A DNA stretch of 64,000 bases from Marsupella aquatica (Eukaryota; Plantae; Marchantiophyta), in contig OZ316892.1 of assembly GCA_973895155.1 (NCBI GenBank), forward strand, positions 3,785,223 through 3,849,222, read 5' to 3'. Shown here piece by piece: positions 21,982 to 45,400 of this stretch. Numbering within the stretch: the stretch's first letter is position 1; the number at the start of each line of letters is the position of its first letter. The translations under genes and the position numbers were made by a program. A model generated the notes under the pieces. It was not told where the DNA came from. It saw nothing but the letters and a program-made list of their open reading frames with translations, and made no database searches.

Positions 21982-22121
21982 GGAGTAGGAGTCCCTCATA
22001 TTTTTGTATAAATCACAATTTTGTAATAAATGTGATCCTTGAACTAACTCATCTTGTCATGGTTGGTCGCAGTTGAAGTGATTGTTGTTTCCTGCTGCAT
22101 GGGGTGTGACTGTGAATCTAC

Positions 22122-22691: not shown

Positions 22692-23016
22692 TAAGATGAG
22701 GACATCTCACACCGGTCTCGCACCTGGCACCTGTGTCTATGACTATACATGATTGGACTCTGATATGGTCATGGATGTACGTGCAGAGGCAGTACATGTG
22801 AGGACAGTGGAGGAGTTGACACCCTCAAACATTTAGGAATTTTGTCTCATTCACTTGAGAATAGGTACATGACTCAGGCACCTATATTTTTTGTTTTTTT
22901 GTTTTTTTGGAACGTTACGTATTTTGGCAAGTACAGTCGGGGTGAAATCCTTAACAGGAAGTGTATTTTTCACTTGCATAATAAACTGACAGGGTGCTGA
23001 GTGCGTGTGTATAGTG

Positions 23017-26000
23017 ATGGCTCCAAGGTTGCCTCTTCACAACCCATTTAGGATTAGGCATCATGATTCTAAATTGTGGATGCGTGAACAAGCCCGGGCC
23101 GCCCAAGGTAGGAGTAGGAGGATGAGATGCCCATGCACACAGTGCCAAGGATTCAAGTCGTTGAGTTTGAACACTGTGCACCTTCACCTACTGCGGCATG
23201 AAAGGCACCCTCGGTGGAGGGTTTGGAATGTATCAGCAGAAGAAGACTCCTCTGATGAAGAGTGGAGAGCTGACTTTGTGGATTCTAATACAGCTAGGCG
23301 TAGAGACTACGTAGAGCAGGACATAGACTGTGCAGAGGATGGTCCTGGGGTCCAACATGAGAACGTGGATGACCAAGATGGAGATGCAGAGGCAGTCACT
23401 GAGGACGGTGGGATGGATGTCCCAAGAATGGTTCAAGAGATTTTTGAAGACCTTGATGCTTTTTACGACACAGTGGAATCAGAAGAGGACAATGAACCGC
23501 AGCCACACATTGGCGACGGCCAAGCTGAACCTAACTTTGACATTGGGGAAGGTGCAGCAGAGAGGGAGTGGGTGTTTGGGGGCCCAAAACACATCAAAGA
23601 AGCTTGCATTCCTATCTACGAGGGGTCGAACTGCTCCAAGCTGGGTTTTATTGTGTTGTTGTTGAACATCTGTGGCAATCACAATGTTCCCAATATATTT
23701 GTGACAGAGTTGTTGACCTTCCTGCGCCGAAATGTGTTACCAGATGGTAATTCAATTCCAAAAAATATGTACGAGGCTAGGAAATTGATGTCTAACCTTG
23801 GGCTGAACTATGTGTCTATTGACGCATGCCCTGATGGGTGTGTTCTCTTTCGCAAAGAGCATGCAGATAAATTGACATGCCCTCATTGTGGTAAGCACAG
23901 GTACAAGAATGTAGGGAAATGTACACACCCTGCCAAGGTTCTTTGTCATTTTCCTCTCATTCCTAGACTACAACGTTTGTTTAGATGCCCTGCCATTTCC
24001 AAGCTGATGACATGGACTCCTGATAACAAGAGCAGTGATGGCCTGCAGCGTCACATTGGAGATTCCAACCATTGGAAATTTGTTGATGAGAGGTGGCCAC
24101 AGTTTGCTGCAGAGAAGCGGAACTTTCGATTTGGTCTATCACTGGATGGAGTAAACCCATTTGGAGACAAAAACAACCATTATTCATGTTGGCCGGTTAC
24201 GCTGCTAAATTACAACCTTCCCCATGGATGACTACAAAGAGGTTTTTTGTCATGATGGTGCTGTTAATCCCTGGACCAGCTTCTGTGACCAAGCAATTCA
24301 TAGATATCATGTTGGCTCCAGCAGTGGAAGAGTGGAAGACTTTGTGGATAGAAGGGGTGTTAACCCATGATGTTCTGAAGGGGCTTCTTCGACCCAGCCC
24401 CTTTAGACTGCATGCAATTTGTTTGCTGGATATAGCAGATTACCCAGGCCATGGCATCATATCTGGATGAGTGACAAAGGGCTATGTGGGGTGCACACCA
24501 TGTGGGAAAAATGTGACAAGTGAGTGGTCGCATGCCCTGCACAGTATGAAATTTCAGGGGCATAGAAGGTATCTGCCTGTTGATCATCCTTACAGGCACA
24601 CACGGTCTCAAATTGCACACTTCAACAACAAAACAGAGCTTCATGGCCCACCACAGAGGGTCACCAGAGAGCAAGTCCTGAGGTGGGCAGCCAGGAAGGC
24701 TGATTGGGACAAGAGAAGTGCCACTGATCGAGAACCTGAGGATCCAGTGGTGAAACACGGTGTGAAAAGACAGACCTTGATGGACTTGGAGTTGGAGTAC
24801 TGGAGGGTAATGTACTTAGCCTCCAGCCCCTGTATGATTGCAATTTTAGATTGGAGCAATGGTGGATTGATGTTGGTTACAATCCTCCTATGTGGTTAAT
24901 TAGTGTTTCTGTTGTTGAATTCTTTGCTTTGTGGAGTGCAGGAATTCGAGCCCAGCAAACACAATGTGGACGTCATGCACATTGAGAAAAATATTTGTGA
25001 GAGCTTGCTGAAGTTCTTGTCGGGTGAGAAAGATACAGGAGCAGTTCGAGCTGATATGCAACAGAAGGGGATTCGCCCTCACCTTTGGTTGAAGCCCCAT
25101 GCAAGCAATCCCAATGTACTTCTCAAGTTCCAAGCTCCCTATGTGTGCACACAGGATGAATGGAAGACATTCTTGTATAGATTGAGCTGTCTGAAAGTGC
25201 CCTCTGGCTATGCTGGTGCCTTCAAGAAGCATATTACAAAGAATAAACTTGGCAGTATGAAAACACATGACTACCATTTGTTGATGCAGCACATTCTGCC
25301 CCTATGCCTCAGAGGTCTCATGCAGAAACCAGTCCGTAATGTCATTCTTCGACTGTGCAATGTATTTCGCCGTATATGTGTGAAAGTGTGGGATCCCCAA
25401 GGATTGGAGCAGTTGAAGCAGGATGCTGCTTATGTCCTCTGTGACTTGGAGATATACTTCCCCCCTGCTTTCTTTGATGTTATGACTCATCTCCTAATCC
25501 ATGTGGTATAAGAGCTAGGGCAGTATGGGCCAGTCAGTACCAGATGGATGTACCCTATGGAGCGATACATGAAGTTGTTGAAAGGTCATGTGAGAACATA
25601 CTACAGGCCAGAGGCTTCCATGGCATTGGGGTACATTAAGGATGAGACGTTGGGATTCCTAACAGAGTACATGGCTGGGTCTGGTGAAGCTATGACAAGA
25701 GTTTGGAAATCTGGTAAAGATGATGGAGTGAGTGGCGAGGTTGTTGAAGGTGTGGGACGTGCTATTCAGCTGCCTGTTGCGATTTGAGACAAGGCTCATT
25801 CATATGTGCTGGCAAACACAGAGCCTATGCAACCATGGTGGAGGTGAGTGATTGAATTGACTTGCCTTTGTTGTGATGCTTCTTGTCTGTTCCAAGGGTG
25901 ATCTTAGGTTGTCATGTGTTGTTTAGACCTAACTATGCCTGTACCTCATATTGCAGGGAATATGATATGCAAAAAGCTGCACACTCTGGGCAGCAGGATC

Positions 26001-26716
26001 CCTTGCCACAGTTTGAGCAGTGGATTCAGGTGACAATTCGAGAGCATAGTAGACATCACCCAGATATGGAGAAGGATTTGTATCTTCTATCTGTGCCACC
26101 ACGATTGTCTATTCTGACCTACAAACGGATGAGAGCTTATGGAAATCATTATCGAGTGAGGGATGAGCAGGGTGACCATTGTGTATCATATGATTGTGGT
26201 TTGATTTCTGTGTTTGAGCAGAGAACCTCTGAAGAACAGAGGGGGTGGATGAAGATGGGTTACGTGGGGGAGTTGACTGACATTTGGGTGTTGAATTATG
26301 GTAACACAAGTGTCCCAGTGATATTGATGAAGGGATCATGGGTGAAATCAGAGTGGCAGAGACCAAGGGCCACCATGAAGCGTGATCATGATGGGTTCTT
26401 GTTGGCCAATTTTAGGTCCAGAGTACCAGAATGGTCTGAGCCTTTTGTTTTCCCTAGCCAAGTTGAACAGGCTTTCTTTGCAGATGTGGAGGAGTCACAT
26501 GGCTGGAGGGTGGTATGCCATAGCCAAGCACGGAACAGGCGGATGGATGGAAGTAAAGTAGAGTTCAGTTTGGATGACCATGCTACATTCGAGCATCCTA
26601 GTCATGAGACTGTACTTCCAACTCGGGCAGGGACTGACTACATCCCCTTAACATTGAGAGAGACATATGATGAACCTGGGCAAATGGAATATGATGAGGT
26701 TGATGATTTGCAATAG
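23017..26716 (+). pseudogene. CACTA TnpD/TNP2-like transposase with stops and a frameshift
   Basis: CPCTQC, IDACPDGCVLF...CPHC...RY, FPLIPRLQRLF, LSLDGVNPF, SCWPV..NYNLP, DVMHIEKN, MKTHDYH, FPPAFFDVMTHL, WMYPMERYM, EPFVFPSQVEQAFF; introns about 24807-24941 and 25843-25956; lesions near 24222, 24468, 25509, 25785. Confidence 0.95.
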
Positions 26717-26893
26717 GCAACAGCTGGCGATTGGCAAGTATGAGGTTGAGGATGACTACCTGCACAGAGTCACAGAACGGGAATTGCTGCCTGGAATGAT
26801 GTTTAGGATAGTTGGATATGCATGAAATTGATTGATACTTTGAATTTAGTGTGTTGATTCTCCCTGTTTGGTTGTGGGTGCTGTGCAGAAGCT

Positions 26894-29800
26894 ATGGGGG
26901 AAGAGGGTGATGACATGGAGACAGACATGGGGCTTGGAGAGTGGGGTGAAGAGGAAAGATTGGATATGGATGGAGACCCAGATGCAGGGGGCTCACAGAA
27001 AAATGCACCTGTGCAGGATGCACAGGGCCCTCATCAAGTCCCAGGTAGGTGGGCAGCTAGAGAGAAATCACATAATCCATACCCTAGAAGGAGCCAGAGT
27101 TATTGGCAAGGGACGCCTGATAATTATGATGATGACTATGATGGAGCAGAAGATGGATGGGATGAATATGAACACCCAGAGCGTGGTAGAGACGGGTATA
27201 GAGGGCAATGGAAAGGTGAGGAGGATGATTGGACAAGTAAGTGCCTTGTGCTAGTGATTTTGTGATGGTAGTAGAGATTTAGCTCAATATATGGACTTAT
27301 CTGATGTGTAGCTAGGGCAAAGAGTTTATCTTACAGGTCCATGAGTGTGGCATGTACCTGTTGGTATGCAGACTCTGATTGGGACAATCACGAAAACAAC
27401 AAAGGCCATCCACGTTCAGATAGGAGGCAATCATTCACAGGCGGGAGAAACGGCCCTAATTCATCAAGACAAAGCAATAGGACAGGTGGTCCAGAACCAT
27501 CTATGCGCCAAGGGAGAGGTAACTTGGTCATTGCAGAATTGCTCTGAAGTCCAATGTATATTGGCAGCAGGATTTATGATTCATACTTACCTAATGTAAG
27601 TGACTGTAAATGGATCCTGTAAATGTGCAGGGACTCCAGGGAGGTTTGGACAATGCAATCCAGGCCGTGGGGGGAGATCAGGCCGTGGAGGGACCCCAGG
27701 CCGTGGGGGGACACCAGGCCGTGGAGGGACACCTAGTAGCGCTTCAGGGAGTACCAAGGCAGGAGACAGTAACAAATTTGGTAAAGTAGAAGTGAATTCC
27801 GAAGGTTGGATAACTCCCACATGTGATGGTAAGAACCGTTGGCATTCTGACCTAAGAGGAGAAGTATTGCGTTGGTTAGATTTGAGCATTACAGAGTTTA
27901 GGAGTCAGAACAAAGCTGATTGGGCTGCTATCTGCAAGGACATTCTTGAACGGTGGGACTATGTTGGTAATGATGGTAAGGGCCCAGTTGAAGATTGCAT
28001 ATCAGATTATGCAATGAGGATTTTGAAACAAGAGAGGCATAGGTTGAAAAGGATGTGGATAGACAATGGTTCTAACAGGAGAATGCCACCACCCCCATCA
28101 TTGGAACTGGATCAATGGACACAGTTAATCAAAGGGTTCATGTCGGAGGCTGGACAGAGCAAGAGTGAACTGATGTCAAATGCTCGAGGCAAAGTGAAAC
28201 ACCTTTCATAGGCTGGGAGAGGAAGTTATGCTCCAGTGAAAGAACAATTGGTAAGGCAGTGACATGCCTGATAGTAAGCCTCAAACTTATCATCTTGCTA
28301 CCATTATTACATTTTCATTGACAATCAACACTTGGTTTCATTCATATGTATGTTGATGTGGACTGCAGAAGAAATTGACAGATGAATCTGAACCATCAGC
28401 ACAAGAAGTGAGAGAGGAGTTCATGAAACAAAGGAGTGAGGTGACAAGTGTGACTTCCAAACAGGTGATTATGTTGTAATTCTGTATGTTCTGTGACTAT
28501 TTGGCCTTGAGCATCAGAAAGAAATGTAGTAGGAAGTAAGCAACCAGTTCTTGGGGACAGTTATCTGAGATATGTAAGCTGTGTTATGACAGGGAACTGT
28601 TACAACTCTCACAGAGATGTGTGAACGGTTGAAGTCATTAGAGTGTGGACTCCCTCGAGTGGAAAGTAAATTGGCTGATCGTTTGGATATTATGGAGGCA
28701 TCTGTAGCAAACCTTCTTGCATCAGTGGAATCTAATTTCAAGCTTGTGATTGAAAAATTGGGTGGTTCCCAACCAAACAATGAGGGCAACATTGTACAAA
28801 GTGTGCCCTTGTTAACAAAAAAGGGAATTGGCAAATCTGACACAGGTATGGAAATGACACCGGCCCATTGTTCATTGTGTCCTATGTTCAAATGTTAGAA
28901 GTAAGTTTTCATGAATTGAGTGAATGGTTTGAATGCAGGAAGAGTGGAGGCAGAGAAGGACCCTGTAATCAGTAAGCAGAAGGGCAAGAAGGTTGCTGAG
29001 ACAGGTAACCTGCTATGATCCAGTACATTACATTTGAAAAGTGCATGGAGTTTTGTGAAGCTTAAGCCGGTTGGAGGTAATCTTTTCTATAAGAACTGGT
29101 TGGATGAACTGGGATCTGAAGTGACATCATGATTGATGTATCAGGTGATTCAAAGAGCAATAATGAAGAAGATGTGCCCAGTGCCTCAGTGACCATAGCC
29201 AAGGAGGTATCAGGTAAGCTGATGCTTTAAATTCCTCTATATGAATGTTGAGCAACAATTCAGTGGTTAATAGATTCAACGTGAATATTGTGGTGTGTTT
29301 ATTGATCAACAGAAGCAGACATGGAGCATATGGCAATGGCAAAGAAGGGGAAGAAGGCTGTTCATAATGGTAAGGAGATAGTGACAACTTTGTGGTTGGT
29401 GACATGTACATTTAGCACATGTGATGAGTGATTGACTTATGTTGGACATGACACTGAATTGTAGTTGATGCAGAGTTGACAGACTCTCAACCAAGTGGGA
29501 GCAGGGTGAAGCGACGTCGAAACTTGGGAGCAACATTGGATGCAAGTAAGATTGTAGATGCTTCAATTGAAGCAAGTACAATGTTGGCAGATACTGAGAT
29601 GATGTCGCAGGGAAATCCTGCTACACAATCAGAAGTGTCAAATATGGATGCAGATTCTTTGAAGAAGAGTGTAGCCAATTCTCGATCACCAGCACAAAAC
29701 ACTCGTGCCAAAGTCATGACTCGCAACCAAGGTATGAATAATGTCATGTATAAGCCACCCAGGAAAGCCAAGAAAAACAGCCAGGGTAAGGTGGAGGTGA

Positions 29801-30069
29801 TAGCCACAGCAGAGCCAGTCCATAATCTTCTATCATGGGAGGATGACTCGCAGGTATGTGTGGGTACAGGCATTTTGCGACCGGATCATGCAAAATTCCA
29901 TGGCAAAGTGGTCCCGGATGACCATGTAGTAGTATTGTTGACTACAGTGATTGTATCTGATTGTAATTTGCCATTTCCGAATAGAGACGATGATCCACCT
30001 CAGGAAATAATTGCAGATGCAGTAGGATCTCTTGTGCTCTGGCCATCAGAGTGTGTTAGTCTGCAGTGA
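26894..30069 (+). pseudogene. CACTA ORF2 (TnpA-like), multi-exon, decayed
   Basis: Lies after TnpD; acidic and GRGG-rich exons, a helical region (W..I...W...RHRLK...PP...W..L), a coiled coil, and a C-terminal FHG..V...V.L..V....LPFP...DAVGSLVLWP domain; stop at about 28209. Confidence 0.75.
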
Positions 30070-33000
30070 CTGAATGCAAGTGTAGATAGAATCATGTGAA
30101 TTGTGTCACATTTTGACATTGCCTTAGAAAGATCCAAGAAATATCTGTACCAATTTTTCCATTTGGTAAAGAGGATGAAGGAGCCGTTGTGTGTGACATT
30201 GATATTTCTGAATTCTGTATATATGAAACAAGTGATTGATGTCAAACTATGGCTCTATGGTGATTGTCTATGATACTTGAATCTATTTTATCATTTCAGT
30301 ATTAGTGTGTATAGTATAGAGGAATACTTTGTGACCTTCTTTGTAGTCTATGATGTTTGAATCTGTGAATTCATATTAGTGTACATGGTATAGAAGATGG
30401 CTTTCTAAAACTATGTATTCTAATGTTAACATGATGAATGGTGAACTTATAGAGTGAGTTCATTCCAAGTACACAATAAAACATGAATGCAATATGTTAT
30501 TTGTGCACAAGAGTGGGTTCATTCCAAGTAGTATAGTGGGGTCTTCATCACTCATATCCAGTTGACATGAAAGACTTATACATACCCCACAAAGTATATT
30601 TAAAGACTACCCTCCATACCCTTTTTAGTCGTTCCCAACGACTCATCATCGCAGCCCATAAAAGACTGAAAACGACTCACCAAAGCTACCCACACAAAGA
30701 CTAAAATAGACTGAAAATCCAGTCTATTAAACGACTTATAAACCAGTTCTAAAAAGGACTCAGTTGATTATAGTAACAAAACATACGACTCGCAGTCCTA
30801 TAAAGGACTGGAGTCCTTCCCAGTCGTTTCCAAGTCCTATACGGTACTGAATAGTCGTTTAATGGGGTCTAAATACCCCCTGGTTTCTACTAGTGACCTC
30901 TTCATAACTCATTTTATCAACAGCTCCCATATTTGTGACCAAGTGCTTCTGGCCCCAACTGATCTCGTATTGAGAAATGTGCAAAACATCAGCGTATTTG
31001 ATCATCTGTGGCGGTGTAAACTTTTTCAAAAGACCTCTTCTTTAAAGCTGAAGATAGATATGAGCATTGATTATCTCATCTTGAGATGCACTCTCCATGG
31101 ACCATTTTGGCTCATTTAATTGAAGATATGCACGGATATCACAGGCCATTTCCATTTTTTCCAAACAAGGCCATAAAATTTTCAAAAGAAAATTGTCTTT
31201 TTGATTTCCATCATATGTAGGTGGAAATAACGCTGAATGAGAAGCATTTGTTGAAGTTCTATAAGGTAAGTCATCTATCAACACAGTGGTCTTGTCATCC
31301 CAATACCTATGTTCTTCCCAAATGAACTTTGATATGTTCTTCAAAAACACAGGTCCACCTTTGCTATTCTTGAGCCCAAGAATTTCTTGAACATGATGTT
31401 GATTTTTGATAAAAAGAAATTTTTTAATTTCTTCGGGTCCAAAGATAGTCTTGACTTGAATCTGGACTTCTTGATCAGTTCCACAACTCCATATTCCTAT
31501 GTCAAACTTTGAGAAACACTTTTGCAAAAATTCATGAATTTGTGGTCTTATTGTCCACATGTTACCACGCCATGTGTGCACAGTTGCCGTTGATATTGAC
31601 TTGGTGCATATTGTTTTTCCGAGATATTGCGATCGGAAAAATAAACCACTAAGATCAAAAATTAGTAATTTACGATCTCGGGCTATATTTTCTGGCAGGT
31701 AAGACCAAACGTGACATGGATCAAGATCGTGTTGACCTGTTACAAATGCAATTACAAATAAATTAGAACTTTGTAAAATAAATGTACAACAACTAATTTC
31801 AAAATTCTATATAAATATGAACACAGATAAAAGATAACAAAATCTTTACCTTTTGGTGCTAATGGAAATATTCCAGCAGGCAATCCTTCTTCAGATGATG
31901 AATCACTCCAAAGGGGTGACTCAATAGATGCAATTCCAGGTACTCTTATTTCTGAATATGAATCATTTTGTCCTACTTCTTCTTGTAAATTGTCAAGTGG
32001 TGACATTTCATTGTGAGAAATGCTTATGATAGTTGGCTGATACAATCATTCAAAGGAACAATCGTATTAGCATTTTTTAAATACAAGCTTTTTGTGTACA
32101 TATTTGGGGTACAAATATCACTCATAAACCTCACGATAATCATGAGGTTTGCATCAGTGAAAAATCTGAAGTCAATAAAAAGTACATATATATACTTGTC
32201 TTTTCAAGGAGATGAGCATGTTTCTCAAATGGCAAGCATGATCCATGCTTGAATTCAAATTATCATCTAATATAAGTTGCTACCTGGTACAGAAAGTATT
32301 TAATTTCCAGTATTCTCATTTTGAGAAGAACCTGCCTGGCCTAATTTGATATCCTCCAGCTCTATTTCGACTACCTCCATAGTCTCAGTTTCAACAATAC
32401 TTGTAATTTCTTCATTCCTGCAAGCATTGGTCTATTTTGACCCAACAATTCCAACATAAGATTATATTCACATATATATAAATACCTCATACGTAAACTA
32501 CAAATAAAATGAAGAATAGATGTTTACCTGTGAAGGACTTGCAAGGTTAATCAAATCATTTTGGCTTCTCATTGTTGATGAAGATTTGTTCAAACTTGAA
32601 GATTGTAAGATTTTTTCAATCAAAACAGAAGCTTGATGTTGATTATCCCGTGGAATACCAACAACAGGCGACCCTTCCTCAAATCTAGAAAGATCTTCAT
32701 CTTCGTCATTATCGTCAATAATTGCATACTCAACAATAACTTCTGAATCTTCAAGAGGATCACCACGATTGATCTTTCCAACCTTCTCCCAAAATTTGTT
32801 AACTCCAAGAATTGTTCTCAAAATATTTGGATATAATTTCAAGAATTCAGACTCTTTTTTTGAGTCTGAATACACAAAGCATTCTCTTCCAAGCTCGAAT
32901 GCACTTTTTAAAACTGATCCTCCAGAAAAGAAATCAAAAATTGTAGCGCCACGTGCAGAAAATTTATGAATGATGTTGTTGAGCACACGAGAGGGCTTGC

Positions 33001-34432
33001 AATCAGGATTAACTAAACCTCCAAGTTGATCCAAAAATGAATAACGAGGAGCTCTATTTTTTAGCGTCTTGAATGCTTCTTCCCTCAAGCGTTCCTCTCG
33101 ATCTTCTTTAGACTCATCCACTGGAATAGATTTTGGATTAGTCTTCCAAGTTTTGGAAAGGTAATCTCGATCATTTTCCTCATCAAATTGGTAGTTCATA
33201 TCTCCTTCAGGAAACATGTCAACCCAATCTTGTTTTGCACTGTGTGAAACGGCTGCCAAAAAACACTAAATGATCAGTAAACTTACTAAGTTCAAATAAA
33301 TTTAGATTCTACAATTAGTGATAATTCTAAACCTCACGATCATTGTGAGGTTTTCTCAATGTATCATAAACCCAAACCCAAACACAAATTTCAAATTTAC
33401 ATACCTGCAATAATTATTTGTTCCCGCTCATTTTTGAAAAACCTCCCAGGATGTATGTAGCCATCGGCTCTCTCAAATGATCCAAATTCAAAATGTAAGT
33501 GAATATCGGGCAAATTGTAAAGTGCAGTTAGCACGTTGGAGTAAAGATGACCATGGAATAAAAAAATGACAATCATTATTGCATCATTTTTTGGTGTTTC
33601 CACAATGTACTTAAAAAACACCTCCAACTGGGATACTGACCACTCTTTTTGGTTTCGTTTTCCAAAATCCACAATGGCAAGAGGAACAAAAGGAGCTGCC
33701 TCTTCTAAAGCACCAGGCTCACATGTTGTCATTAAGTTGTCAGTGAAAAAAGTTAGAAATGGCTCTAATCTCTTTCTCTGGCTTCCACCGAATGCATCAT
33801 AAAATAGTTGATTTAGTCTTGATACTAAACCATGCGGAATATTTTTCTCACGTGCAATATTCCGAGAAGTACAAGATATCAAGTACTTGGTACCAGCCAC
33901 TTCTCTGCATCTATCCAATTCCCTAGCATCAATGAGAATTTTATCATATAGTTCCTTCCAAGTACATTTATCAGGAAAATGGTCTGAAAAAGTGATTTGA
34001 TAATATCCAATAATTATCTCCTTCAGTTTGGAGAGAACTTTTGTTGTTTTGGCAAGCTCTTCCATAGATTGCATGTCACCTTTGTAAGAAGCATCTTTCT
34101 TAAGGAGAACTCCACCATGTTCGACCTCTTTGAGAATGGCTATGATATCATCATCTTGCAAGCCTCCCTCCAAACTCCGGAAATTTGAAACTGTTAGAAG
34201 CTTAGACTCTTTTTTATTTTCAGTGATGATACCTTGTCCATCTGGAAGCTCTCCCTCAAGCCACTTGTTACACACTTCCTTCCACAAACAATACAACTTC
34301 TCAGATGCAAAAAGTATCCAATGTACTTCAGTAAGATGTTTCTTCTCCATGGTCAGTTTTGCTGTATGCTCAAATTCCTGCACATGTCAAAAGAAACTAT
34401 ATCTTTTCAATATGAGTAGTTGACCTCACGAT

Positions 34433-36329
34433 TGTAAGTAGTGGGTAATTCCAAAAGCATGAAGAAACTGATTTTTTTTTTAATTTTTTACGGTGTTTAG
34501 ACTGCAATTATTGCTAACTGTAACTAAAACAACATTCAAAGTTACTAAGTTCCTAAGTTACGAGTAAACTCAGTTTACGAGTTTACTAGTTCACTACTTT
34601 ACGAGTTACACCTTAAGATTTGGCGACCCTGTGATCGTGACATCTTACAACTAGTTCAACGGGACTCCACAACGGATGAAGAGCTCACCTTGAAAGGGAA
34701 GGAATGCAAGACATAGGCGCTCATTACTGACTTCTCTTCCACCTTACCTCTCAAACTCTGCCCAGCTTCAACCGGTATTTCAGAGATGTCAAATGGAGAC
34801 TTCGACCCTTCTATTCCAGGATGATGAGTAGTGATGAGTTCCTGTTTCATTATCCTCAAGTGTATGCTGCTACCTGCAACAACTATGATGTGATCGGGAT
34901 GTACAGAGAAGCCCTTCGTATTGATTCATGTTATTTGATGAAGATAATGCCTTTGATGTACCCTGAGAGACAACTGAGGTGCCTACCATACTCCAGAGGA
35001 TCCCCACGCCAAGCTGAGCTGATAGAGGTTACTCAGAACCGAATTGTTACCCTTGTGGAGTTGCTGGAACCAGACGACATCCGACAGCAAGCTTGAAGAA
35101 GTCTTTAAGTGTTTTTAGTTAGTTTTTAGAGTAGTGCATCTTATCTGATTTTTAGAAATGTGTTCTAGAGCTTTAAAAGCTGTCATACTTATTTAGCATG
35201 TAGTCTGTACCTAGGAAAACCTCCTGGAAAAATCTCAGAGTTTTCTGACTTATAGTTAGGAAGTTAAAAATAGTTGAAATTTCCAAGTCATTACTTCTGT
35301 CGCAATTACGAGTTACGACTTAGCTTTTACTAGTTTAAGAGTTACTAGTTTCCGATTACGAGTTCCGATAGACAGCCGATTACGAGTTAATAGTTACTAG
35401 TTACGAGTTCATACTTAGCCATTTTTCCGGCTTTTCACTTACTGAATCGCCATTTTAAAATTTTGAGGGGTATGAAGAGGCATGTCTCTTCGACCCTGTG
35501 ACCTCTCACTCAGTAGATTTTTACTATAAGACCCCTCTACCACTAGTGTAGATGATGGTAAAGTTTAGTAATTTCTGCCTTTCCTTGGTGTTCTGCCAGT
35601 TGATCATGAATGTTAAGAGTTCGAGATCAAGCTTGACACCAGGAGAAGACTTTCCTCCTTCTTGTGATTTAATCCTTTGAATAAATCATGGGAAGTAAAA
35701 TTCCAGTTGTGTAAATCTTTTGAGTTGTGATGACAGATTCCTCTTTGGGTGACTCATTATAATCTCCTGAGTTCTTAGAGTTAACTCACTGAGTTTAAGT
35801 CTTATTTGAAAGTGATGGATTTTCTTTCATGTTGCTTAGTACCATCTAAATGTTGAAGTAGTCACTCTTTTAGATTTTATCTGAGTACCACTTAGAAAGA
35901 AAGGATAAGACATGTTGACGGCATTTTAAAAGAGTACTCTAGTAAGCAATTTAGATCTGAAAAGCAATATGGATTTGAATCCTTAAGTCTTTTCATTTTG
36001 ACTTATGTCTAAGGAGTAACCTTGGTCTATTCCAGACTCCCTTAGCATACTTTGAGATATTTTTCCTTGTGTTTTGTTAATCATTCTTCTTTTCATTAAT
36101 TTATGGTTACATGATGCTGAGTTGTCATTAAAAACCACTCACCGCTGTGGAGCGATCTTCAAAATACCTTAGTAAAGTAATCAATCCTGATTACTATGTG
36201 TTAAAGAGAGTCTTTAAATTCTCATTTGTGTTTTTATGTATCAAATCAACCCCATCTTGTTCTTTACGGGAACGAATACCGAGTTTGAAGACCTTTAAGT
36301 GTGTTTCTGGTTCTTCATAGCAAACTACA
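34433..36329. mobile_element. Solo LTR (about 1.9 kb) in an intron of the ParB-MTase gene
   Basis: TGTA...TACA ends; 5-bp TSD ACGAT at 34428-34432 and 36330-36334; removal restores the palindrome gacctcacgatcattgtgaggtt. Confidence 0.85.
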
Positions 36330-38259
36330 ACGATCATTGTGAGGTTGTTACTTAGGCATGGCATTCATGATTCAGAAAAATAACACAGTACAACAAACTT
36401 AAACCTTTTATGCAAGGCAAACTTACCTTGTAAATTGGACTTGCTATTTGTCCCGCCTCAGGCCGTTTTGGAAAACCAAAATCAGCGTACTGATTTCTTG
36501 CATGCTCCACAGTATCAATGAATGGAGATTTATAATCAGAAATCTTGTTCATCTCATTTGAGCTACTAGAGAACTCCAGCAAGATCTTTTTTGGTGTAGC
36601 TCCACTAAAAATGCGAGATGAACGTACTTGCAATTTATTTGCAAGCTCTCGAAGATCAGGTTGTTTTTTGGCATGCTCACAGATTCTTTGAGCGGCAAGT
36701 GCAGAGTGTTGTCCACTTATAGCAAAGAACTTTAACCTTGGCATCAATTTCTGAAATTGAGTCATGTCATCTTTTGCAAAACTCATTGGTTTCAAGGTCT
36801 GAGGGTTGTAGGGAACTAAATCAGCAGGATGAGGTTGCTGCTCGGGATGCAAGATCATCCCAGTCATTATCTCATCAACATGAGAAAGTTTAATTTTCCT
36901 ATAACACATGGTAGCAGGAGGTTGCGTGATATTCTTCACCGGAATCCCAAAATGTGTTCTAATTCCAAAAGGATAGTAATCTTTCACCTCTTGCAAAATC
37001 TTGTTAGATTTTTCAATCTCTTTGGCTCCAGGTAACTCACTCTCTTCATTGTCACCCACTTCTCGTAAGATTAGTGCTCCTTGTTGCACAAGATCAACAA
37101 CTGTATCCCTATTGCTATCTGGTTGCTTCCCCCAATGACTTCTTTCTTGTTGATGGCTTTCTCTTTGGTTGCACAATTGTTGGCTTGCTCTGTACATTGC
37201 CTCCTATTTGAAGTACAATGGGCTCAATCCTTTCACTTTGTTGTGCAAAAATCTCTTCCACGTTGTCCTCTTCTTGTGGCTGTTTTCTCTTCCTCTGCAC
37301 ATTTTGTGCCTTGGTGGTTGGCGGTCGTCTCTTTGGCTGAGAAACTACAAGCTTGGTAGCTTGTTTCTTCTTTTGTTGGACAATTCCAGGAATGCTTTGA
37401 ATTTGAGGCTCTACACTATCAAGCTTCTCACTTTGTTGTGGAGATGCTTCTCTACTGGGATCAATGATTGGTACCGCTTCTTCGTCAGCCTTGGCCCCTT
37501 CATATTCTGACATATCTACTCCCAAGTCATCTTCTAAAGACTTTGGCACTTCCTTCACCTTGTTTGCAACCAAAGTTTGCAAGTCAATCCAGTTGGAGAG
37601 TGTTTCTTTTCCAAATTTCTTATGGAAAAGAACAGCTGGATCAATATCAATGTTGGTTAGTCCACTTGTCTCAATGCACTGCTCCATCTGCAATGTCCTA
37701 CACAAGAAATGCTTCTTTCTTTTCAGCAAATGTAAGACTCGAGCATAACCAGATGCAATCTCCTGGTGTGAAAGTTGTCCTTGATCTGAACTACCTTTGA
37801 AACTAAAGTCCAAAGGAAAGAATGCCAAAGAAATAACATTGGCTGGCATATCATCAATCCAAGTTGTATTCAACCGCACTCCATATGTATTTGCATCAAG
37901 CAAGTATTGATACCATTTTTTTTCCGTGTAATTCTCTACAAGAACAGTTACTTGATCCTCAGAATGCATTTGCAAGTATGCAATTGGACCAACAATGTGC
38001 TGTCGCAATCGGTGTGGATCTTTTTTTATGTCAATCAAACACAACTGAACTTCTCCATCGTAAGGGTACATATCAATTGCCCACTCTTCTCCAATGTCAT
38101 AGCTGTATGTTAAACATACATCATTATCACAAATTTTTGGTGCAGATACTGGGTCCAAATCATGGTAATCATCTGCACAATAAACAAGTGAAGTCCATTA
38201 ATTAAATGAACAGATCCAATTCTTGAGAATAAACTAGGTGGAATGATGCAGAAATGAGC

Positions 38260-38872
38260 AAACCTCACGATAATCGTGAGGTTTTGACAAGCAAAATAGA
38301 ACTTGACAATTTCTATGGAAGCATAAAAATGATAAAATATGAGCTCAACCCTTGAACAAAACCATGCAAATAAATATGAAATGAAACAACAATTGTGAGG
38401 TTTGCTGCCAACAAAAATATTCTTGACACTCTCCCTGACCTCTCACCAAACCATGAAAATATGGCTAAACTTCACAATGATAGTGAGCTTTTCCAAGCAA
38501 AAATATCCTTGAACCTATTGCCAAACCATTAAAAAAGACCCTAATCCTCACAAATATCTGAAGGTGATCCACAGAAAAAAGATGTTACTATTCTCTATCC
38601 ATGCATGAAAATTTGAAACCTTGATCATCACCATTGTGAGGTTGAAAAGAAAAAATGTCCTTCACCCTCTCATGAAGCCATGAAATGATGACCCTTCACC
38701 TCACGATGATCATGAGGTTAGGCAAGTAGAAATGACTTTCCTCATCTTAGTTAGTCAAGCAAGAAAATGTAGAAACCTCACGATGATCATGAGGTTAACA
38801 AGTAAAAAAAATTGAAATTCTAACTTTAATCAAGCATTAGAATAGTCAAACCTCACGACAATCGTGAGGTTA
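38260..38872. repeat. Array of about 8 copies of palindrome AAACCTCACGATNATCGTGAGGTTT, mostly about 75 bp apart
   Basis: Copies at about 38260, 38384, 38467, 38543, 38616, 38696, 38773, 38848. Confidence 0.85.
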
Positions 38873-39111
38873 ACAAGCAAAAAACATGAGAATGTCAAAG
38901 AATACATGCCAAAATAACAGAAGTAGCAAGGTTGGAAAATGAAAAGTACCTGGAAGCCCAACATGTGCTTGCTTTGTCATCATTACCAGATCCTTCTTGG
39001 GCTTAGCCATGCCAAAGCCGTGCGCCTATCAAAGAATCTTAAAAGATTCTTTGCAGATACTCTAAACTTGCTTGTTCTGGTACACCAAAACTCAATCAAA
39101 GTTTATAATTT

Positions 39112-39312
39112 AGCAACTCAAACCCTAAACAATACAATGCAACTCAATCTCCTCAGAGCATACTCTGATAATAAGCGCACATGCCTATTGAACCAGTCAC
39201 AAAACTCATCATTTCTAATGTAGCAGCTCAAACCCTAAACAATACAATGCAACTCAATCTCCTCAGAGCATACTCTGATAATAAGCGCGCATGCGTATTG
39301 AACCGGTCATGA
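39112..39312. repeat. 110-bp-period tandem duplication upstream of the cargo gene start
   Basis: ctcaaaccctaaacaatacaatgcaactcaatctcctcagagcatactctgataataagcgc occurs twice. Confidence 0.85.
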
Positions 39313-39806
39313 AACTTATCAAATACAAATGAGAAAGCGCATTGAGCCGGTAAGGAGACTCATGACACCCATTAGTTCACGTTCAATTGAGAAAGAAGAT
39401 AATAAGATAACAACCCAAGATAAGATAAGGACAATGAGATACGCACCTCCTTCACCAGTCATACGTACAGTAGAGGGATTGTCTGGCCTGAGCAAGGCAC
39501 ATGTAGCTACCAACAATACAGAAAACACTAATGAATAGGCACCTCTAGTACAACAGAAATCTACTCCACTATTCCACATAAACATTGACTGTCGGTACCT
39601 TGGTGATTGTGCAGACAGTTATGACAGAGGTACTGTAGCTAACTTGAATAGTCCTCCCTCACATACTATGTACACAATTCTGAGGAATGAGTGCAGAGAA
39701 TTTTGAGTTTAAATAGATATGTGAGCATGAACAAGGAGAAGTCTTGCGGCTGATCCCTCACAAGGGCCTGCCAACAGTACTAGGGCGTGCCAGCAGTAGC
39801 GCCTGC

Positions 39807-40015
39807 CAGCCTTTCACCTTCCACTAAAAATACCCTGCATGCGCTCTTGCTACGGCTGTCCTCACAGCCTTTCACCTTCCACTAAAAACGCCCTGCATGC
39901 GCTCTTGCTACGGATGTCCTCACACTACGAATCATCCTCTTCTTGGCAGCTAGGGCCTCAACAAACGAGTTTTCAGGGCCTCAACAAACGAGTTTTCAGG
40001 GCCTCAACAAACGAC
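39807..40015. repeat. Short tandem repeats (58-bp x2; 22-bp x3) in the divergent intergenic region
   Basis: cagcctttcaccttccactaaaaa x2; agggcctcaacaaacgagttttc x3. Confidence 0.8.
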
Positions 40016-40200
40016 AGAGTTTTCTTTGGTGAAGTACCCCCGATAACTTCCCAATCGAGCTTCCGCCAACTCTAGCCGCCTTCTCCTCTTCACACGGAGC
40101 TGACACTTAGTAAGTCACATGACACCTTATACGGCATGCATCTATATATGGCTAATTATTTGGTACCAATTATATATTTGGTACCAAATCCTAACAACTC

Positions 40201-40497
40201 CTCGGGGGTCTCACTACATGGGGACCTCCCCATCACCTGCGACGTTTTTAGGCCTTGAACCCCCTAAAATGTAAGAAAAAAATATTATTTTTTAACCCCT
40301 AGAAAGTTGGAATATTCTTGGAATATTCCAAAAATTGGATTAAAAAGGCCCTAATATTCTTATAAGTCTCAAAATTGAATTTAAAAGACCCTATTGTTCT
40401 TCTACAAAAATTCTTAAGTCTTCCCTTACAACCAATAAAATGACCCTATCCTTCGTCGCACGTGATATGCCATTTTTGTGGAAGTGAAACCCCCGAG
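40201..40497. mobile_element. MITE (CTCGGGGG-ended family), copy 2
   Basis: TIR ctcgggggtctcact / agtgaaacccccgag; perfect 8-bp TSD AACAACTC at 40193-40200 and 40498-40505. Confidence 0.88.
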
Positions 40498-42493
40498 AAC
40501 AACTCTAATGTAACTGTGTCAAATTTACATTCGTCTTTGGCCAAAAATTTTAATCCATATTTTGGGGCCTCTAAAAAAATATTGAGAGATTTACACTTGA
40601 CCATGGCAAAAAAAGGCCAACTCCAACTACTCCACTAAAATCAAGTAATGTCCAAGAAGTTGGTGAAATTGGTGAGGTCAATGGGCCAACAAGCGTTGCT
40701 AAAAGGAGAAAAAGTACTAAGAAACGGATGACGGCTTGTTATTGCAAGAGAACAAGCCAAAATACTTAGCCACAAGGAAAACCTGAAAATTTTCAAATTT
40801 CAACAACACAAAAAAATTCTGACTACAAGGTTCCTCATCGTGCAAATACACTAGGCTGTACAATAATGGAGGAAAAATCGCAAAATGTCCCTCAGTCATC
40901 ATATTTTAAAAAATTAATGTGTTGAGCAAATGTCGTTTACTTGGAGTCTATTAATGCGAGCTAGTTGGCGAATCCCTCCAAAACTGGGCCAATGAGTGGA
41001 AAATTAAAAAAACAGAATGAATAGTAAGGATTTTTGAAACTCCCGTTTGATTCCATGTAAATACAGAGCTCTACAGTATACAGGAGGACAAATCCAGTAT
41101 GCAAAAGCAAAAGGTCTGTCGTCATTCTTTAAATATTAAAAATGTGCTAAGCAACTTTGTTTTTTCTTCATTCTTATTGATGAAAGCTGACAATTCCCTC
41201 CAAACCTGGGGCCAATGAGTCTTCGCCAATAAACTCAAACTCAGCAACATTAGTCAATCCATCTCACGCTGATCCATTGCTCTCAAAGATATATTTGCAA
41301 ACCCTGCCCAACACTTCCACATGTTCATTTTACTTCAGTTTCAGAGTTGTTTATTTTTCTTTTCTGCTACTCACACTTTTGCATTCTCTGTTTGTGCCCA
41401 CTCTTCTACAACTATTTTCTGAGGGAAGTCTAAGCATTTTCCTTCATTTAACCAATGAAAAGACCCTCCTCCTACTCCAACTCTCTTAGATCATGGTGGA
41501 CAATGCTGACTCTGCAGTTGAGTTTGAACTGACGTTTGATGAACATTTGGGCGTCTTCTAATTGATGAGGACGCATGGTGGCACTCTTATACTCTATCTT
41601 CACCACATGCGGCAAAGACATTTATGATTCTGAATTTTGGGTATGTTTCTTTTACTTTGTTTAAGTCGTTTGTGAGTCTTTAGCTTTATTTTTGTCTTGT
41701 GCACTAAAAGTAACTAATTATGACCATCAATTTGCATACTTGGCCAAGCTCAATATGACATAGGTCTACATATGTTTTGTTTTGTTCATTGAGATATAGA
41801 GGCATAAATTGTCATCCTCAAGATCATCTTGAGGTTGTAAGTTTTCCTGTGTGTGTCCATCATTCATATGGAAGTTACATGGACTAAACTATTAATATCA
41901 ACATTAAGAGAAAATAGTGAATGGATCATTTTTTAATGGGTTGTAAGAGTTGATTTCTCTCAACCTCATGAGATTTTTCCCAATACAAGCCTTTAAGTCC
42001 ATAGGTACTTCATTTTTATTCTCATTCATTTATTCATACTTCAGTCTTCTTGAAGCAAGAAATGAAACCTCACGACAATCGTGAAGTTCTACTGTACTTT
42101 ATTTTATGACCAATAATTCTCATTCTTTTGGGTTAAATTGAATCTCTTAGTAGGTCTTGTGAATGTATTCCGGCAAACATATTGTAGTCTAACATTCTGT
42201 CAGTCCACATCCGTGTAATTACTTGCGGACCTTCTAGACCACTATTATTTCTAACATTATTGCCTTATACCTACATAATGGACTTTTTAATGCAAAGTTG
42301 ACCCAACTATGCATGTTAAGCACTTGCATGGGACCATATTAAGTTTAACCACAAAAACTAGGTTTAGTGCCTGGATGAATTTCACTTTAGTATCCAAGTA
42401 GCCTGAAACCTCACGATGATATTGAGGTTTCTTCTGGACCCTGACAACCTGTCATCTTCAACTGATCTTGAGTAATTTTCTTAACAATTTTTT

Positions 42494-45400
42494 ATGCAGA
42501 TCATGACTACAACTCGGAGTGCCAATTTTTTGTTCTCCCAAGGGTCTGAAGTACTTCTTCATCTTGAGAATATATTGGTTGCAAGGGGGGTTGTGTTCAA
42601 GACCAATCCAGAAGACACTTGTCATTCTGAGGCATTGGGTAACAACCGCATGAGTGTTCTGGTGGTTGAAATCTTTGAGCCAACAAAACCTCTTCCTTAC
42701 CCAAATCCAGGAGCTGACACCACTGGGGAGGCTTTGCGTTCATATGTTATATGGGACTGTGCTAGTGCCATTTTGGCAAATGAGAACATCCCATTGCAGG
42801 TCCAAAAAGCATCCAATGATACTCCCAACCTTGTGAGACTTGAAGGAACTGATGATTCAAGAATTGTTGGAAACCAAGTCCCCAATTCCAACAATGAACC
42901 GGTTGCACCATTTTGTTCAGGAGATGATGTGCTATTGCAACTTACAAGCATTGTTGTTGCACGGGGAGAAGTTTCTAATACTCAACCAGAGGATACTTGT
43001 GGTGACATATTATTGGGACCAGGGCGTATTAGTGTCCATGTGGTTGAAGCACTTCATGGGGTGACTCAATTGCCATACCCCAACACTAACATAAAGACAA
43101 TTGAGCAGTCTGTAGGTAGTGTTGTTCTTTGGGATATAGTCAATGTATATCATGTTGGTGAGCAATTCAGTGGGTGTGAATCGATTGAGATTCAAAATGG
43201 CGGACTCAGTCAAGGACCACATGACAACTACAATTTGAATGATCGTTCCAAGTGGTACTTAAAAGATGTGGAGATTTATGCTGTTGATCAGGTGACATTG
43301 CTTGCAAGAGGATCAATCACAGCATGGCAACCCACAGCAGCAATAAACAATGAAGTGCTTGGTGATGGTCATGTTGGGGTGCTAGTTGAACGTGTGATTT
43401 GCAATATCCACATGCAACAGAAGGAATTTCCCACATTTTTAGTGGGAACCCCGTGCTTGGTAAAATGGCCGATTGCAACTTTGAAATTCTATCCTTCTGA
43501 CAAGTTTCTTGGAGATCTTCTGTCAGAACTTGAGGATGAACAGACTGTACATAAAGAGGGGGATAATGATGAGGATGATTTGTTCTCTTCTATGGAGTAC
43601 CAGCAAAAGAAAAGGCATTATTCCATGGGCGGGTTGAGAAAACCAGCCAACCCAAATGCACGCCAAGAAAAAAGAGTGGAGCAGAGAAGAAGTGTGAAGG
43701 TGGATGAGAACAAAATAGCTCAAGTGGGCATGAAGAAGTGCAAGTGTGGAATGGAATGTTGTCGGAACTTCCCCCGCACAGACATTGAAGAGGTCAAAAC
43801 TGAGTTCTATGGTTTGGACAGTGATAACAAAATCAGTCATATGATGAATGTTTTTGAAATGAGGGAGAGATCTATGGTTGAGCAAGGACAAATGGTTGTC
43901 AAAGGTCGCATTATTTGCAAAATGGCATTTGCAATTATATTTGGAATTTCTACAAGCACCTTCTACAACTATGAGAATCTATACAAGGGTGGTTGTAAAG
44001 TGGGGTTTCATGGCAATAAGGGCACCAAAAAACCAAGGATGACAACACAAGAGTTTCGTGCTCATCTTGACCGTGTAGTGAATACCCTTGGCGAGCCTAT
44101 GCCACATCTCAGATACACAGGGAAGAAGGGAACATCAAACATCATCTACAGATTACCATCTTGCTATAACAAAGATGCTATCTATGATGAGGTAGTTGAG
44201 AGCATGAAGGTGGAAGGGAGTTAGGGAATTACCATTGGGTCTTTCTATAAGATGTGGAGGGAGAACTATGCAAATTTTTCATTCCATGTGAAGAGTGCTT
44301 TTGCAAAGTGCACTCAATGCACCACTTTGAAGGAGTTGTTGATGAAGGAGAGAAGAACTGAAGTTCGCAAGCGGTACGAAGCAGCAAGGGAAAAACACAT
44401 GCAAGAACAAATGTCTCGTCGAAACCTTTACTATGCAGCTCGGGTGATGGCAAGAAGAAATCCAGAAGATCTTCTTTGCATTATTCATGATAAGATGGAT
44501 CAAAACAAGACCCAAATTCCTAAAATGGTTGATACACTAAAAAGCATGGCTAGTGGATGTCAACCACTACCAATGGCTTTGACTGGGATGTTGACACATG
44601 GTCGGGAACCTGGAGTCTTTGCCCACTTTAGTTTGACAGGGATGTGGCCATCTGATCCGGATTTTACTATTACCTCCGTTGCAAAGTGCCTGCATGATTT
44701 GGAAGCATATTCGGGGGATAAAAGTGGAGATCTTGGAGTTCATTCCCATCAGGCAACAAACCCCTTATTCAAGGCATTATTGGAAAAGCAAGCTTTTCAA
44801 ATTGGATATCTAGATGCCAACAATGTCACAACTGATCGATATCGTGGGGAACTTGTGGACAAGGATTGTGTCTCACCAATTGTGGCAAGCGGATTGGCAG
44901 AATGTCAGAGTAGTAGCACTACACTGTTCAAGAAATTGCCAAGACATCTACACTTACAAATGGACAACTCTGCAAAGGACAACAAGAATTGGGCCATGAT
45001 GGCATTCTGTAGTGAGTTGGTTCTGAGGGGACACTTTGAGAGTATTGTCATGTCTTTCCTTATGGTTGGGCATACACATGAGGATGTTGATGCAGTATTC
45101 TCTAGGGTAAGCACTCGACTTAAGCATCGTGAGGTCACAACCCTACTTTCACTTATGGCAGAGGTATGGGAAAGCGAAGCAATTCACCCAGTGCCCACAT
45201 TGATCCAAGAAGTGGCTAGCTACAAGTCTTATGTTAGTGCTTTTGTGAAGACTATTGCAGGGCACTCTGCACCAATGGCATTCCTATTTACAATGAAAAA
45301 TAATGTCCCTGTGTACCAAGTCAAGGAGAATATCAATGACTCATGGTCACCACCCCAAGGACGATGCATATGGGTTGAAGATGGAAGTAAAACACTTGTC

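What the first reader, a model, noticed from the sequence alone, without database searches (positions are those of the whole stretch)
32498..37197. Intron-containing plant gene encoding a ParB-like domain fused to a bacterial-type N6/N4 DNA methyltransferase fold, linked to a transposase
Seen: in-phase exons encode FAISGQHSALAA (36691-36730) and, downstream, NPDCKPSRVLNNIIHKFSARGATIFDFFSGGSVLKSAFELGRECFVY (motif I near 32918-32935), with LAIVDFG (33661-33684) where motif IV would lie. Known: the first resembles the ParB/Srx GxHR motif; the second follows the HPxxKP...S..G..V.DPFxGSG...A...GR consensus of beta-class amino-methyltransferases (motif IV before motif I). ParB-MTase fusions are typical of phages and bacterial mobile elements, and horizontally acquired N4C MTases are known in Marchantia (MpDN4MT1) and bdelloid rotifers (N4CMT). 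Inference: a prokaryote-derived ParB-MTase module has become spliced cargo of a plant DNA transposon, possibly marking or shielding the element's own DNA. DPPY/SPPY and FxGxG are degenerate here, so it may be a non-catalytic binder.
Basis: partly seen in the sequence, partly recalled or inferred. Interest (0 to 1): 0.88.

Follow-up and report, generated by a model that had tools for sequence, protein, structure and literature searches.

The report
Liverwort Sola transposon's ParB-methylase helper
A 14-kb DNA transposon, likely of a liverwort, carries beside its transposase a spliced gene whose protein is predicted to fold like a bacterial ParB domain plus a DNA methylase but lacks the usual catalytic motifs, so it likely helps the element by binding its own DNA rather than by methylating it; genes of this kind are already reported from algal transposons.

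Summary
It lies inside a Sola-type element at 13199-46758 (25-bp inverted ends, 4-bp target duplication), 14.2 kb once nested insertions are removed, head-to-head with a DUF7869 transposase. Public contigs show several near-identical copies with different flanks. Models match the ParB/Srx fold (Z 8.3) and beta-class amino-methyltransferases (Z 17.9). In Riccia sorocarpa 6 of 22 relatives lie within 3 gene numbers of a related transposase (0.5 expected). The odd motifs are family traits, not decay: motif I DFFSGG is near-invariant, motif IV keeps its Asp (42 of 43) but none of 159 proteins has PPY, and the ParB arginine is mostly Ser. Eleven 25-bp palindromes lie only in the element's introns, and an FCP1-like phosphatase domain follows. 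This copy is dead. The kind is known: Ectocarpus Sola1-1_Ec32 carries a ParB + N4/N6-methylase gene in the same arrangement. New here are the land-plant host, the family-wide loss of the catalytic motif and a candidate target site. Best reading (0.45): a non-methylating self-binding helper, like VANC.

The parts
13199..46758 (.). Whole Sola-type DNA transposon; 33,560 bp here, about 14,240 bp without nested insertions
   Evidence: TIRs and TSD; contig depth step and mixed flanks at 13199
13199..13223 (+). Left terminal inverted repeat, preceded by TSD TAAG (13195-13198)
   Evidence: 23 of 25 bases match the right end; contigs begin at 13199 with different flanks
46734..46758 (-). Right terminal inverted repeat, followed by TSD TAAG (46759-46762)
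38950..39010 (-). Predicted first coding exon of the cargo gene (ATG, phase-1 donor)
   Evidence: splice sites and phase only; no RNA
36427..38172 (-). Exon A: unnamed N-terminal domain, charged linker, ParB/Srx-fold domain (about 36984-36529, SGQHS at 36717-36703); frameshift in the G run 37129-37133
   Evidence: one X2 contig has a 1-base gap somewhere in 36330-37454
33405..34377 (-). Exon B: about 200-residue helical region, then first half of the beta-class methylase fold; motif IV site reads VDFG instead of DPPY
32528..33252 (-). Exon C: target-recognition region, motif X (NPDCKP), motif I (DFFSGG), acidic tail
30896..32036 (-). NIF/FCP1-like HAD phosphatase exons (32036-31850, 31736-30896); first motif reads DLSGL; can join exon C in frame or be a separate gene; frame continues beyond the CACTA at 13895-13644
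   Evidence: PF03031 E 2e-13; phases; fused Riccia model P0121
42500..46216 (+). DUF7869 (Sola-type) transposase, divergent from the cargo gene; in-frame TAG at 44222-44224 in this copy
   Evidence: PF25273 E 9e-44; 228 homologues; homologues read through the stop
32126..42430 (.). Eleven 25-bp palindromes (AAACCTCACGATnATCGTGAGGTTT) at 32126, 33329, 34419 (split by the solo LTR), 38260, 38467, 38696, 38773, 38848, 41813, 42065, 42406; all in predicted introns
13897..30895 (+). Nested CACTA element (TSD ACC) inserted in the NIF reading frame; not part of the Sola element
   Evidence: contigs continue from 13896 into sequence like 30899 onward
34433..36329 (.). Nested solo-LTR-like insertion (TG...CA, 5-bp TSD) in cargo intron 2
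   Evidence: contigs of all four runs skip 1902 bp here
40201..40497 (.). Nested MITE (8-bp TSD) between the two genes
   Evidence: skipped in contigs of 3 of 4 runs

Best explanation
The gene is the accessory gene of a Sola-type cut-and-paste transposon, and its protein likely works as a non-methylating DNA-binding helper of its own element. Shown: it lies between the element's ends, head-to-head with the transposase, travels with it in several copies, and relatives sit beside related transposases in Riccia. Predicted by models: a ParB/Srx-fold domain, a helical region and a beta-class methylase fold. Shown by alignment: the SAM-side motifs are kept and the catalytic PP(Y/F/W) is absent throughout the family. 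Inferred: the methylase fold still binds SAM and reads DNA; the protein, probably as a dimer, binds the 25-bp palindromes in the element's introns; and binding keeps the element expressed or competent to move despite host 5mC silencing, as VANC does for VANDAL elements. The window's copy is dead and would depend on intact sister copies.
For: Ends and TSD. Mixed flanks at 13199 and a depth step. Cargo and transposase both at about 2-7 and 2.5-12 times flank depth (contig depth is only a rough guide). Riccia linkage 6 of 22 within 3 tags, P 2e-5, shifted controls at most 2. Folds: PadC Z 8.3, rmsd 3.1, 99 aligned, top 8 rows all ParB/Srx; CcrM Z 17.9, rmsd 3.4, 216 aligned. Motifs: motif I residues 35-39 of 40, motif X Lys 41 of 42, motif IV Asp 42 of 43, canonical motif IV in 0 of 159 proteins, ParB His 65 of 65 followed by Ser in 61 of 65. 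The X1 contigs have the same motifs I and IV as the window (all their differences are listed and fall elsewhere). Palindromes: 10 intact copies in the element, 0 in the other 49.6 kb, all in introns. VANC21 binds introns and other non-coding parts of its element (PMC5735166). Self-binding was proposed for the algal proteins.
Against: Nothing here shows that the cargo protein, rather than the transposase or a host factor, binds the palindromes. The one homologous intron seen in another lineage has no such palindrome (L001). CpG positions in the palindromes are changed more often than other positions (10 of 40 against 14 of 200, P 0.002), and CpG is depleted in the exons (o/e about 0.3 in exons A, B and the transposase), so the element has not escaped host 5mC. 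14 of 22 Riccia relatives are not within 6 tags of a listed transposase (only 120 of 228 hits were listed). Strong conservation of the motif IV Asp, motif I and the ParB pocket fits a working enzyme as well as a binder.
Confidence: 0.45

Rival explanations
1. It is an active DNA amino-methyltransferase with a non-standard motif IV (D-F/L-x-R). It would write 6mA or 4mC on its own element, perhaps at the palindromes, and so block or mimic host marks.
For: Asp at the motif IV position in 42 of 43 rows; motifs I and X conserved at 20-30% overall identity; closest folds are active enzymes; the Ectocarpus authors predicted 4mC or 6mA for their protein.
Against: No PP(Y/F/W) in 159 proteins. Motif I is one residue shorter than in M.RsrI. 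The acidic residue after the next strand varies (Asp in 16 of 39). From general knowledge, the prolines and the aromatic residue of motif IV hold and activate the flipped base.
Confidence: 0.2
2. It is a transposition co-factor, like CACTA TnpA or the Harbinger Myb protein (recalled): it, or the transposase itself, uses the internal palindromes to bring the ends of a long element together, with no effect on silencing.
For: Divergent two-gene layout, short 25-bp TIRs on a 14-kb element, palindromes internal to the element; ParB folds act as DNA clamps (general knowledge).
Against: The palindromes lie in introns kilobases from the ends, and none is subterminal. Many Riccia transposase hits have no known cargo neighbour (93 tags against 22 cargo tags looked up).
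Confidence: 0.2
3. The three enzyme folds (ParB/Srx nucleotide-binding fold, SAM-binding fold, HAD phosphatase) together make or remove an unknown DNA base modification on the element.
For: All three domains have altered canonical motifs but conserved pockets; ParB/Srx relatives include kinases (SerK, SbnI); a methylase + NIF fusion is annotated in Riccia.
Against: No product or pathway evidence; the ParB arginine is Ser in 61 of 65 rows; NIF was seen fused in only 1 of 51 proteins scanned.
Confidence: 0.1
4. It is a host gene or a neutral passenger that happens to lie next to a transposase.
For: This copy decays neutrally (14 non-synonymous, 4 synonymous differences from contigs, plus a stop).
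Against: It lies inside matched TIRs with a TSD, is multi-copy, is linked to transposases in Riccia, and Riccia holds at least three separate, well-supported lineages of it.
Confidence: 0.05

Closest known systems
Accessory gene of Ectocarpus Sola1-1_Ec32 (Dinatale et al. 2025, PMC12477816; passages and supplement rows seen)
   Same: Giant Sola1 element with 4-bp TSD; accessory gene on the strand opposite the transposase; ParB-like plus N4C/N6A methylase domains in a protein of similar size (1104 aa against about 1170 here); self-binding proposed.
   Different: Brown alga against likely liverwort; 282-bp against 25-bp TIR. Here motif IV is lost across the family, a NIF domain follows and the introns carry palindromes; none of these is mentioned in the passages read. 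Sequence homology was not tested, as the FASTA supplements could not be read.
Plavaka accessory genes PAG2 and PAG3 of red algae (bioRxiv 10.1101/2025.02.11.637652, section 8 read)
   Same: Methylase and ParB domains carried by giant DNA transposons, with inverted-repeat arrays proposed as ParB targets.
   Different: The domains lie in separate genes (methylase + SET; ParB + 2OG oxygenase) of EnSpm/Plavaka elements; the repeats are tandem arrays beside the gene.
Beta-class DNA amino-methyltransferases (CcrM, M.RsrI, M.PvuII, M.MboIIA; Pfam PF01555)
   Same: Fold, motif order (IV before I), motifs X and I.
   Different: No (D/N/S)PP(Y/F/W); motif I shorter by one residue; fused to ParB and helical domains; spliced.
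ParB/Srx superfamily N-terminal domain (PadC, KorB, Noc, sulfiredoxin, SerK)
   Same: Fold.
   Different: G-x-x-R reads G-Q-H-S; larger insert; no ParB-type HTH was identified. The motif recalls DGQHR proteins (recalled, no NCBIfam hit).
VANC anti-silencing proteins of Arabidopsis VANDAL elements (PMC5735166, abstract and section 7 read)
   Same: Works-like comparison: transposon accessory protein with short target motifs in the element's introns and non-coding DNA.
   Different: Unrelated protein and superfamily; VANC function is shown, this one is inferred.
Marchantia MpDN4MT1 and bdelloid N4CMT (passages)
   Same: Eukaryotic beta-class amino-methylase folds; N4CMT matches at Z 15.3.
   Different: Those are active host enzymes with SPPY and no ParB domain; this is transposon cargo without the motif.

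Membership tests
Sola DNA transposons | 4-bp target site duplication | tested here: met
   TAAG on both sides; feature from PMC10741241
Sola DNA transposons | Terminal inverted repeats | tested here: met
   23 of 25 bases; the end is confirmed by mixed flanks
Sola DNA transposons | DDD transposase of the Sola type | tested here: inconclusive
   DUF7869 E 9e-44; invariant Asp in MD, DN..NKN and GHTHE.D motifs. No Sola reference was available; the Sola1 label rests on recalled motifs and the Ectocarpus parallel.
ParB + N4/N6-methylase accessory genes of Sola1-1_Ec32 type | Inside the element, on the strand opposite the transposase | tested here: met
ParB + N4/N6-methylase accessory genes of Sola1-1_Ec32 type | ParB-like and N4/N6-methylase domains on one chain of about 1100 aa | tested here: met
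   In-phase exons give about 1168 codons; 7 of 160 profile hits carry both on one chain
ParB + N4/N6-methylase accessory genes of Sola1-1_Ec32 type | Sequence homology to the Ectocarpus protein | not testable with these tools
   FASTA supplements could not be read
Beta-class DNA amino-methyltransferases (active enzymes) | Permuted Rossmann fold, motif IV before motif I | tested here: met
   Model of homologue P0002, pLDDT 92: CcrM Z 17.9, M.RsrI E 6e-8
Beta-class DNA amino-methyltransferases (active enzymes) | SAM-binding motif I and motif X | tested here: met
   DFFSGG residues 35-39 of 40; Lys 41 of 42; one-residue gap against M.RsrI
Beta-class DNA amino-methyltransferases (active enzymes) | Catalytic motif IV (D/N/S)PP(Y/F/W) | tested here: not met
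   0 of 159 proteins; the site reads D-F/L-x-R/H
Beta-class DNA amino-methyltransferases (active enzymes) | Methyl transfer to A-N6 or C-N4 | not testable with these tools
   needs a biochemical assay
ParB/Srx superfamily | ParB N-terminal fold | tested here: met
   Window exon model pLDDT 88.7; PadC Z 8.3, KorB Z 8.2; top 8 VIA rows and top Foldseek rows all ParB/Srx, best PDB E 3e-3, best viral E 3e-5
ParB CTPases proper | G-x-x-R phosphate-binding motif | tested here: not met
   G-Q-H-S; Ser in 61 of 65 rows, Arg in none
ParB CTPases proper | HTH domain that reads parS | tested here: inconclusive
   The helical region (model residues 1-200) was barely tested by the fold search
MpDN4MT1 family | TSPPY motif, no added domains | tested here: not met

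The most novel reading that the evidence does not exclude
Liverwort Sola elements encode a self-targeting DNA-modifying machine with new chemistry: a ParB-fold nucleotide-binding domain, a SAM-binding methylase fold with a D-F-x-R active site and an FCP1-like phosphatase act at palindromes in the element's own introns and write a mark, other than plain 5mC, that licenses the element. It would be the first transposon-written DNA mark in a land plant.
Probability: 0.15. Interest if true: 0.9.

Novelty: new variant of a known kind. Interest (0 to 1): 0.5.

Why it matters
Transposon-encoded proteins that act on their own element's chromatin are proven only for VANDAL/VANC (as stated in the Bostrychia preprint). 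ParB + methylase accessory genes were proposed as a second class in algae, untested. This element extends the class to land plants and argues, from family-wide motif loss, that the simple 'writes 4mC/6mA' idea is probably wrong for this branch. It also offers what a test needs: a young family with near-identical copies, exact ends and a candidate 25-bp target, in a lineage with a genetic model (Marchantia). A programmable or site-specific anti-silencing protein would be useful for epigenome work.

Tried and rejected
No whole genome was held for the window, so copy number and ends come from public contigs. No RNA holder was listed, so splicing is predicted only. Linkage to the CACTA transposase was rejected: it is a nested insertion with its own TSD. 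Sequence searches for ParB gave nothing in Pfam, PDB, PHROGs or NCBIfam. Pattern scans: metagenomes 0 of 110 stretches with the ParB patterns and 1 of 38 with motif I, a 1.8-kb contig too short for linkage; viral contigs 0 of 79; GTDB genomes 0 of 32. These scans need exact short patterns and do not exclude distant prokaryotic relatives. One search covered only proteins of 1578-4505 residues and found none, which says little. The one prokaryote-looking hit (P0148, JGI, 1.56-Mb contig) fails the family profile and was dropped as spurious. Co-divergence of cargo and transposase in 8 Riccia pairs was inconclusive: one pair agrees (53% and 86%), one disagrees (70% and 39%), many do not overlap. 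The methylase tree did not finish, and the ParB tree is a quick tree. An RNA-hairpin role for the palindromes is not favoured: substitutions do not keep pairing on the transcribed strand (read). Bao et al. 2009, the Cell 2025 version of the Marchantia paper and a third Sola reference were not held.
Full report
Observation. The motifs are at the stated places on the minus strand. Exons A (38172-36427), B (34377-33405) and C (33252-32528) have GT-AG borders and compatible phases; a small predicted ATG exon lies at 39010-38950. Together they give about 1168 codons if one base is removed from the G run at 37129-37133. One X2 contig has a single 1-base gap in 36330-37454, which fits an unbroken frame in sister copies. 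No RNA run was listed, so splicing is predicted.

Folds. Exon C hits PF01555 at E 8e-5 and M.RsrI at E 0.01; a 62-sequence profile hits M.RsrI at E 2e-8. A model of the matching 491 residues of homologue P0002 (pLDDT 92) matches CcrM (Z 17.9, rmsd 3.4, 216 aligned), M.BceJIV, M.MboIIA, M.PvuII and rotifer N4CMT; the top 20 rows are all amino-methylase folds. The window's own exon A segment (pLDDT 88.7) matches PadC (Z 8.3, rmsd 3.1, 99 aligned), KorB, a ParB-N domain, SerK, sulfiredoxin and SbnI as the top rows. Foldseek agrees weakly in the PDB (best E 3e-3, Noc) and better among viral ParB proteins (E 3e-5). Z 8 alone is modest; the case rests on one superfamily filling the top of three searches.

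The element. A DUF7869 transposase (E 9e-44) lies head-to-head at 42500-46216 with one in-frame stop that homologues lack. Laying four public runs on the left side shows contigs that begin at 13199 with different flanks (3 in X3, 2 in X4) and a depth step from flank to element (X1 48 to 130, X2 14 to 64). The first 25 bases from 13199 match the reverse of 46734-46758 at 23 positions, and TAAG flanks both ends. Sola elements have 4-bp TSDs and can exceed 15 kb (PMC10741241, passages). Three insertions are nested and absent from sister contigs: a 17-kb CACTA with TSD ACC, a 1.9-kb solo-LTR-like piece and a 0.3-kb MITE. Without them and a 110-bp duplication the element is about 14.2 kb. Cargo depth is 2.0-7.3 times flank depth and transposase depth 2.5-12.3 times. 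The tool warns that contig depth is no copy number, so I read this only as 'a few copies'. The long contigs differ from the window by about 0.5%, so the family is young. This copy is dead: frameshift, stops in the transposase and in NIF, the CACTA inside the NIF frame, and 14 non-synonymous against 4 synonymous differences among the listed variants (only 40 of 460 variant rows were shown).

The family. A full HMMER search found 174 clusters at E 0.001, of which 150 were listed. The best named hit of the ParB exon is Calypogeia fissa at 67%. The transposase's named hits are also liverworts, so the host is likely a liverwort; the range beyond liverworts is unknown. In Riccia, 6 of 22 cargo gene numbers lie within 3 of one of 93 transposase numbers (expected 0.52, P 2e-5; shifted controls at most 2) and 8 within 6; 14 do not. 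Only 120 of 228 transposase hits were listed, and gene numbers give no orientation. Riccia rows fall in at least three supported clades of a quick tree, as expected of an old, diversified transposon gene. The intron after the ParB domain is shared with L001.

Motifs. Across the profile alignment (rows are not independent) motif I reads DFFSGG in 35-39 of 40 rows per position and the motif X Lys is in 41 of 42. The motif IV Asp is in 42 of 43, followed by F or L; none of 159 proteins contains (D/N/S/H)PP(Y/F/W). The ParB motif is SGQHS, with His in 65 of 65 and Ser where ParB has Arg in 61 of 65. The X1 contigs carry the same motifs I and IV as the window, since all their differences are listed and lie elsewhere. 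So these are conserved family traits and not damage. The NIF domain downstream (E 2e-13) reads DLSGL where DxDxT is usual (recalled). It can join exon C in frame, and one Riccia model has methylase and NIF fused.

Palindromes. Ten intact copies of a 25-bp palindrome lie in the element and none in the other 49.6 kb at up to 6 mismatches; an eleventh is split by the solo LTR. All are in predicted introns, in 5 of 6 introns, and none is in the promoter region or near the ends (P 2e-4 by copies, 0.02 by introns). Their CpG positions are changed more than the rest (10 of 40 against 14 of 200). The single homologous intron of another lineage lacks the motif.

Mechanism. Shown: cargo status, conserved SAM-side motifs, lost catalytic motifs, intronic palindromes. 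Predicted: the folds. Inferred: SAM and DNA binding without methyl transfer, binding to the palindromes, and help to the element against silencing, as for VANC, which binds introns and other non-coding parts of VANDAL21 (PMC5735166, abstract and section 7). I give this 0.45; an active non-standard methylase 0.2; a transposition co-factor 0.2; new base chemistry 0.1; passenger 0.05. Against the main reading: no binding evidence, and CpG loss shows that the element is still methylated by the host.

What is known. Dinatale et al. 2025 (PMC12477816; passages and supplement rows) describe a 1104-aa ParB-like + N4C/N6A methylase gene opposite the transposase in Ectocarpus Sola1-1_Ec32 and propose a class of self-modifying accessory proteins. 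The Bostrychia preprint (section 8) describes methylase and ParB accessory genes with inverted-repeat arrays in red-algal Plavaka elements. Iyer et al. 2016 (PMC4738411, passages) list ParB-HTH methylase fusions in chlorophytes and chytrids, in a different methylase group, and inactive methylase domains in DIRS elements. I found no paper on a liverwort or land-plant case, and the Riccia genome paper does not contain the words Sola or methyltransferase. The library lacks most subscription papers and Repbase, and the Ectocarpus FASTA supplements, which bear on homology and on motif IV, could not be read. Unchecked notes of this scan report similar genes in other plants and an animal, so the class may be wide.

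Verdict. Real and well delimited; a new variant of a known kind. Interest 0.5: the class is in print, but the land-plant element, the family-wide loss of motif IV and a candidate target make the open question of its function directly testable.

Noticed in passing
window 13897-30895: The nested 17-kb CACTA carries extra ORFs besides its transposase: NSD-type PHD fingers (20059-20532), a BRCT domain (21400-21978) and a weak F-box-like ORF (22116-22688). It is very high-copy in the runs.
   Followed up: partly
window 1-1360: Copia reverse transcriptase/RNase H frame, open for 453 codons, with little CpG loss (o/e 0.76); it looks unlike the rest of the window and recalls fungal Copia elements (recalled impression).
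   Followed up: no
window 5337-6506 and 52795-53898: Two copies (92-94% alike) of an F-box/kelch-like ORF without Pfam hit, with shared flanks, probably cargo of another element.
   Followed up: no
window 10152-10572: Histone H3 gene fragments in a short duplication.
   Followed up: no
window 11514-12508: High-copy element of about 1 kb with mixed flanks at both ends, just left of the Sola element.
   Followed up: partly
window 46824-52815: A repeat begins 65 bp after the Sola right end; large inverted duplications (48482-49891 against 51920-52815) and three 237-bp tandem copies at 49812-50530.
   Followed up: no
window 37600-38172: The cargo protein's N-terminal 200 residues form a conserved domain of no known family (22% identity to P0043, E 7e-10; also in P0001, P0026, P0030). 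It was not folded.
   Followed up: partly
window 42500-43500: The transposase N-terminus has three Tnp1/EnSpm-like repeats (weak PF03017; PF26133 in homologues); a similar domain ends the CACTA ORF at 29458-30066.
   Followed up: no
window 32300-32417: An exon-like stretch between exon C and the NIF exons that stops at once in phase with exon C; its role in splicing is unexplained.
   Followed up: partly
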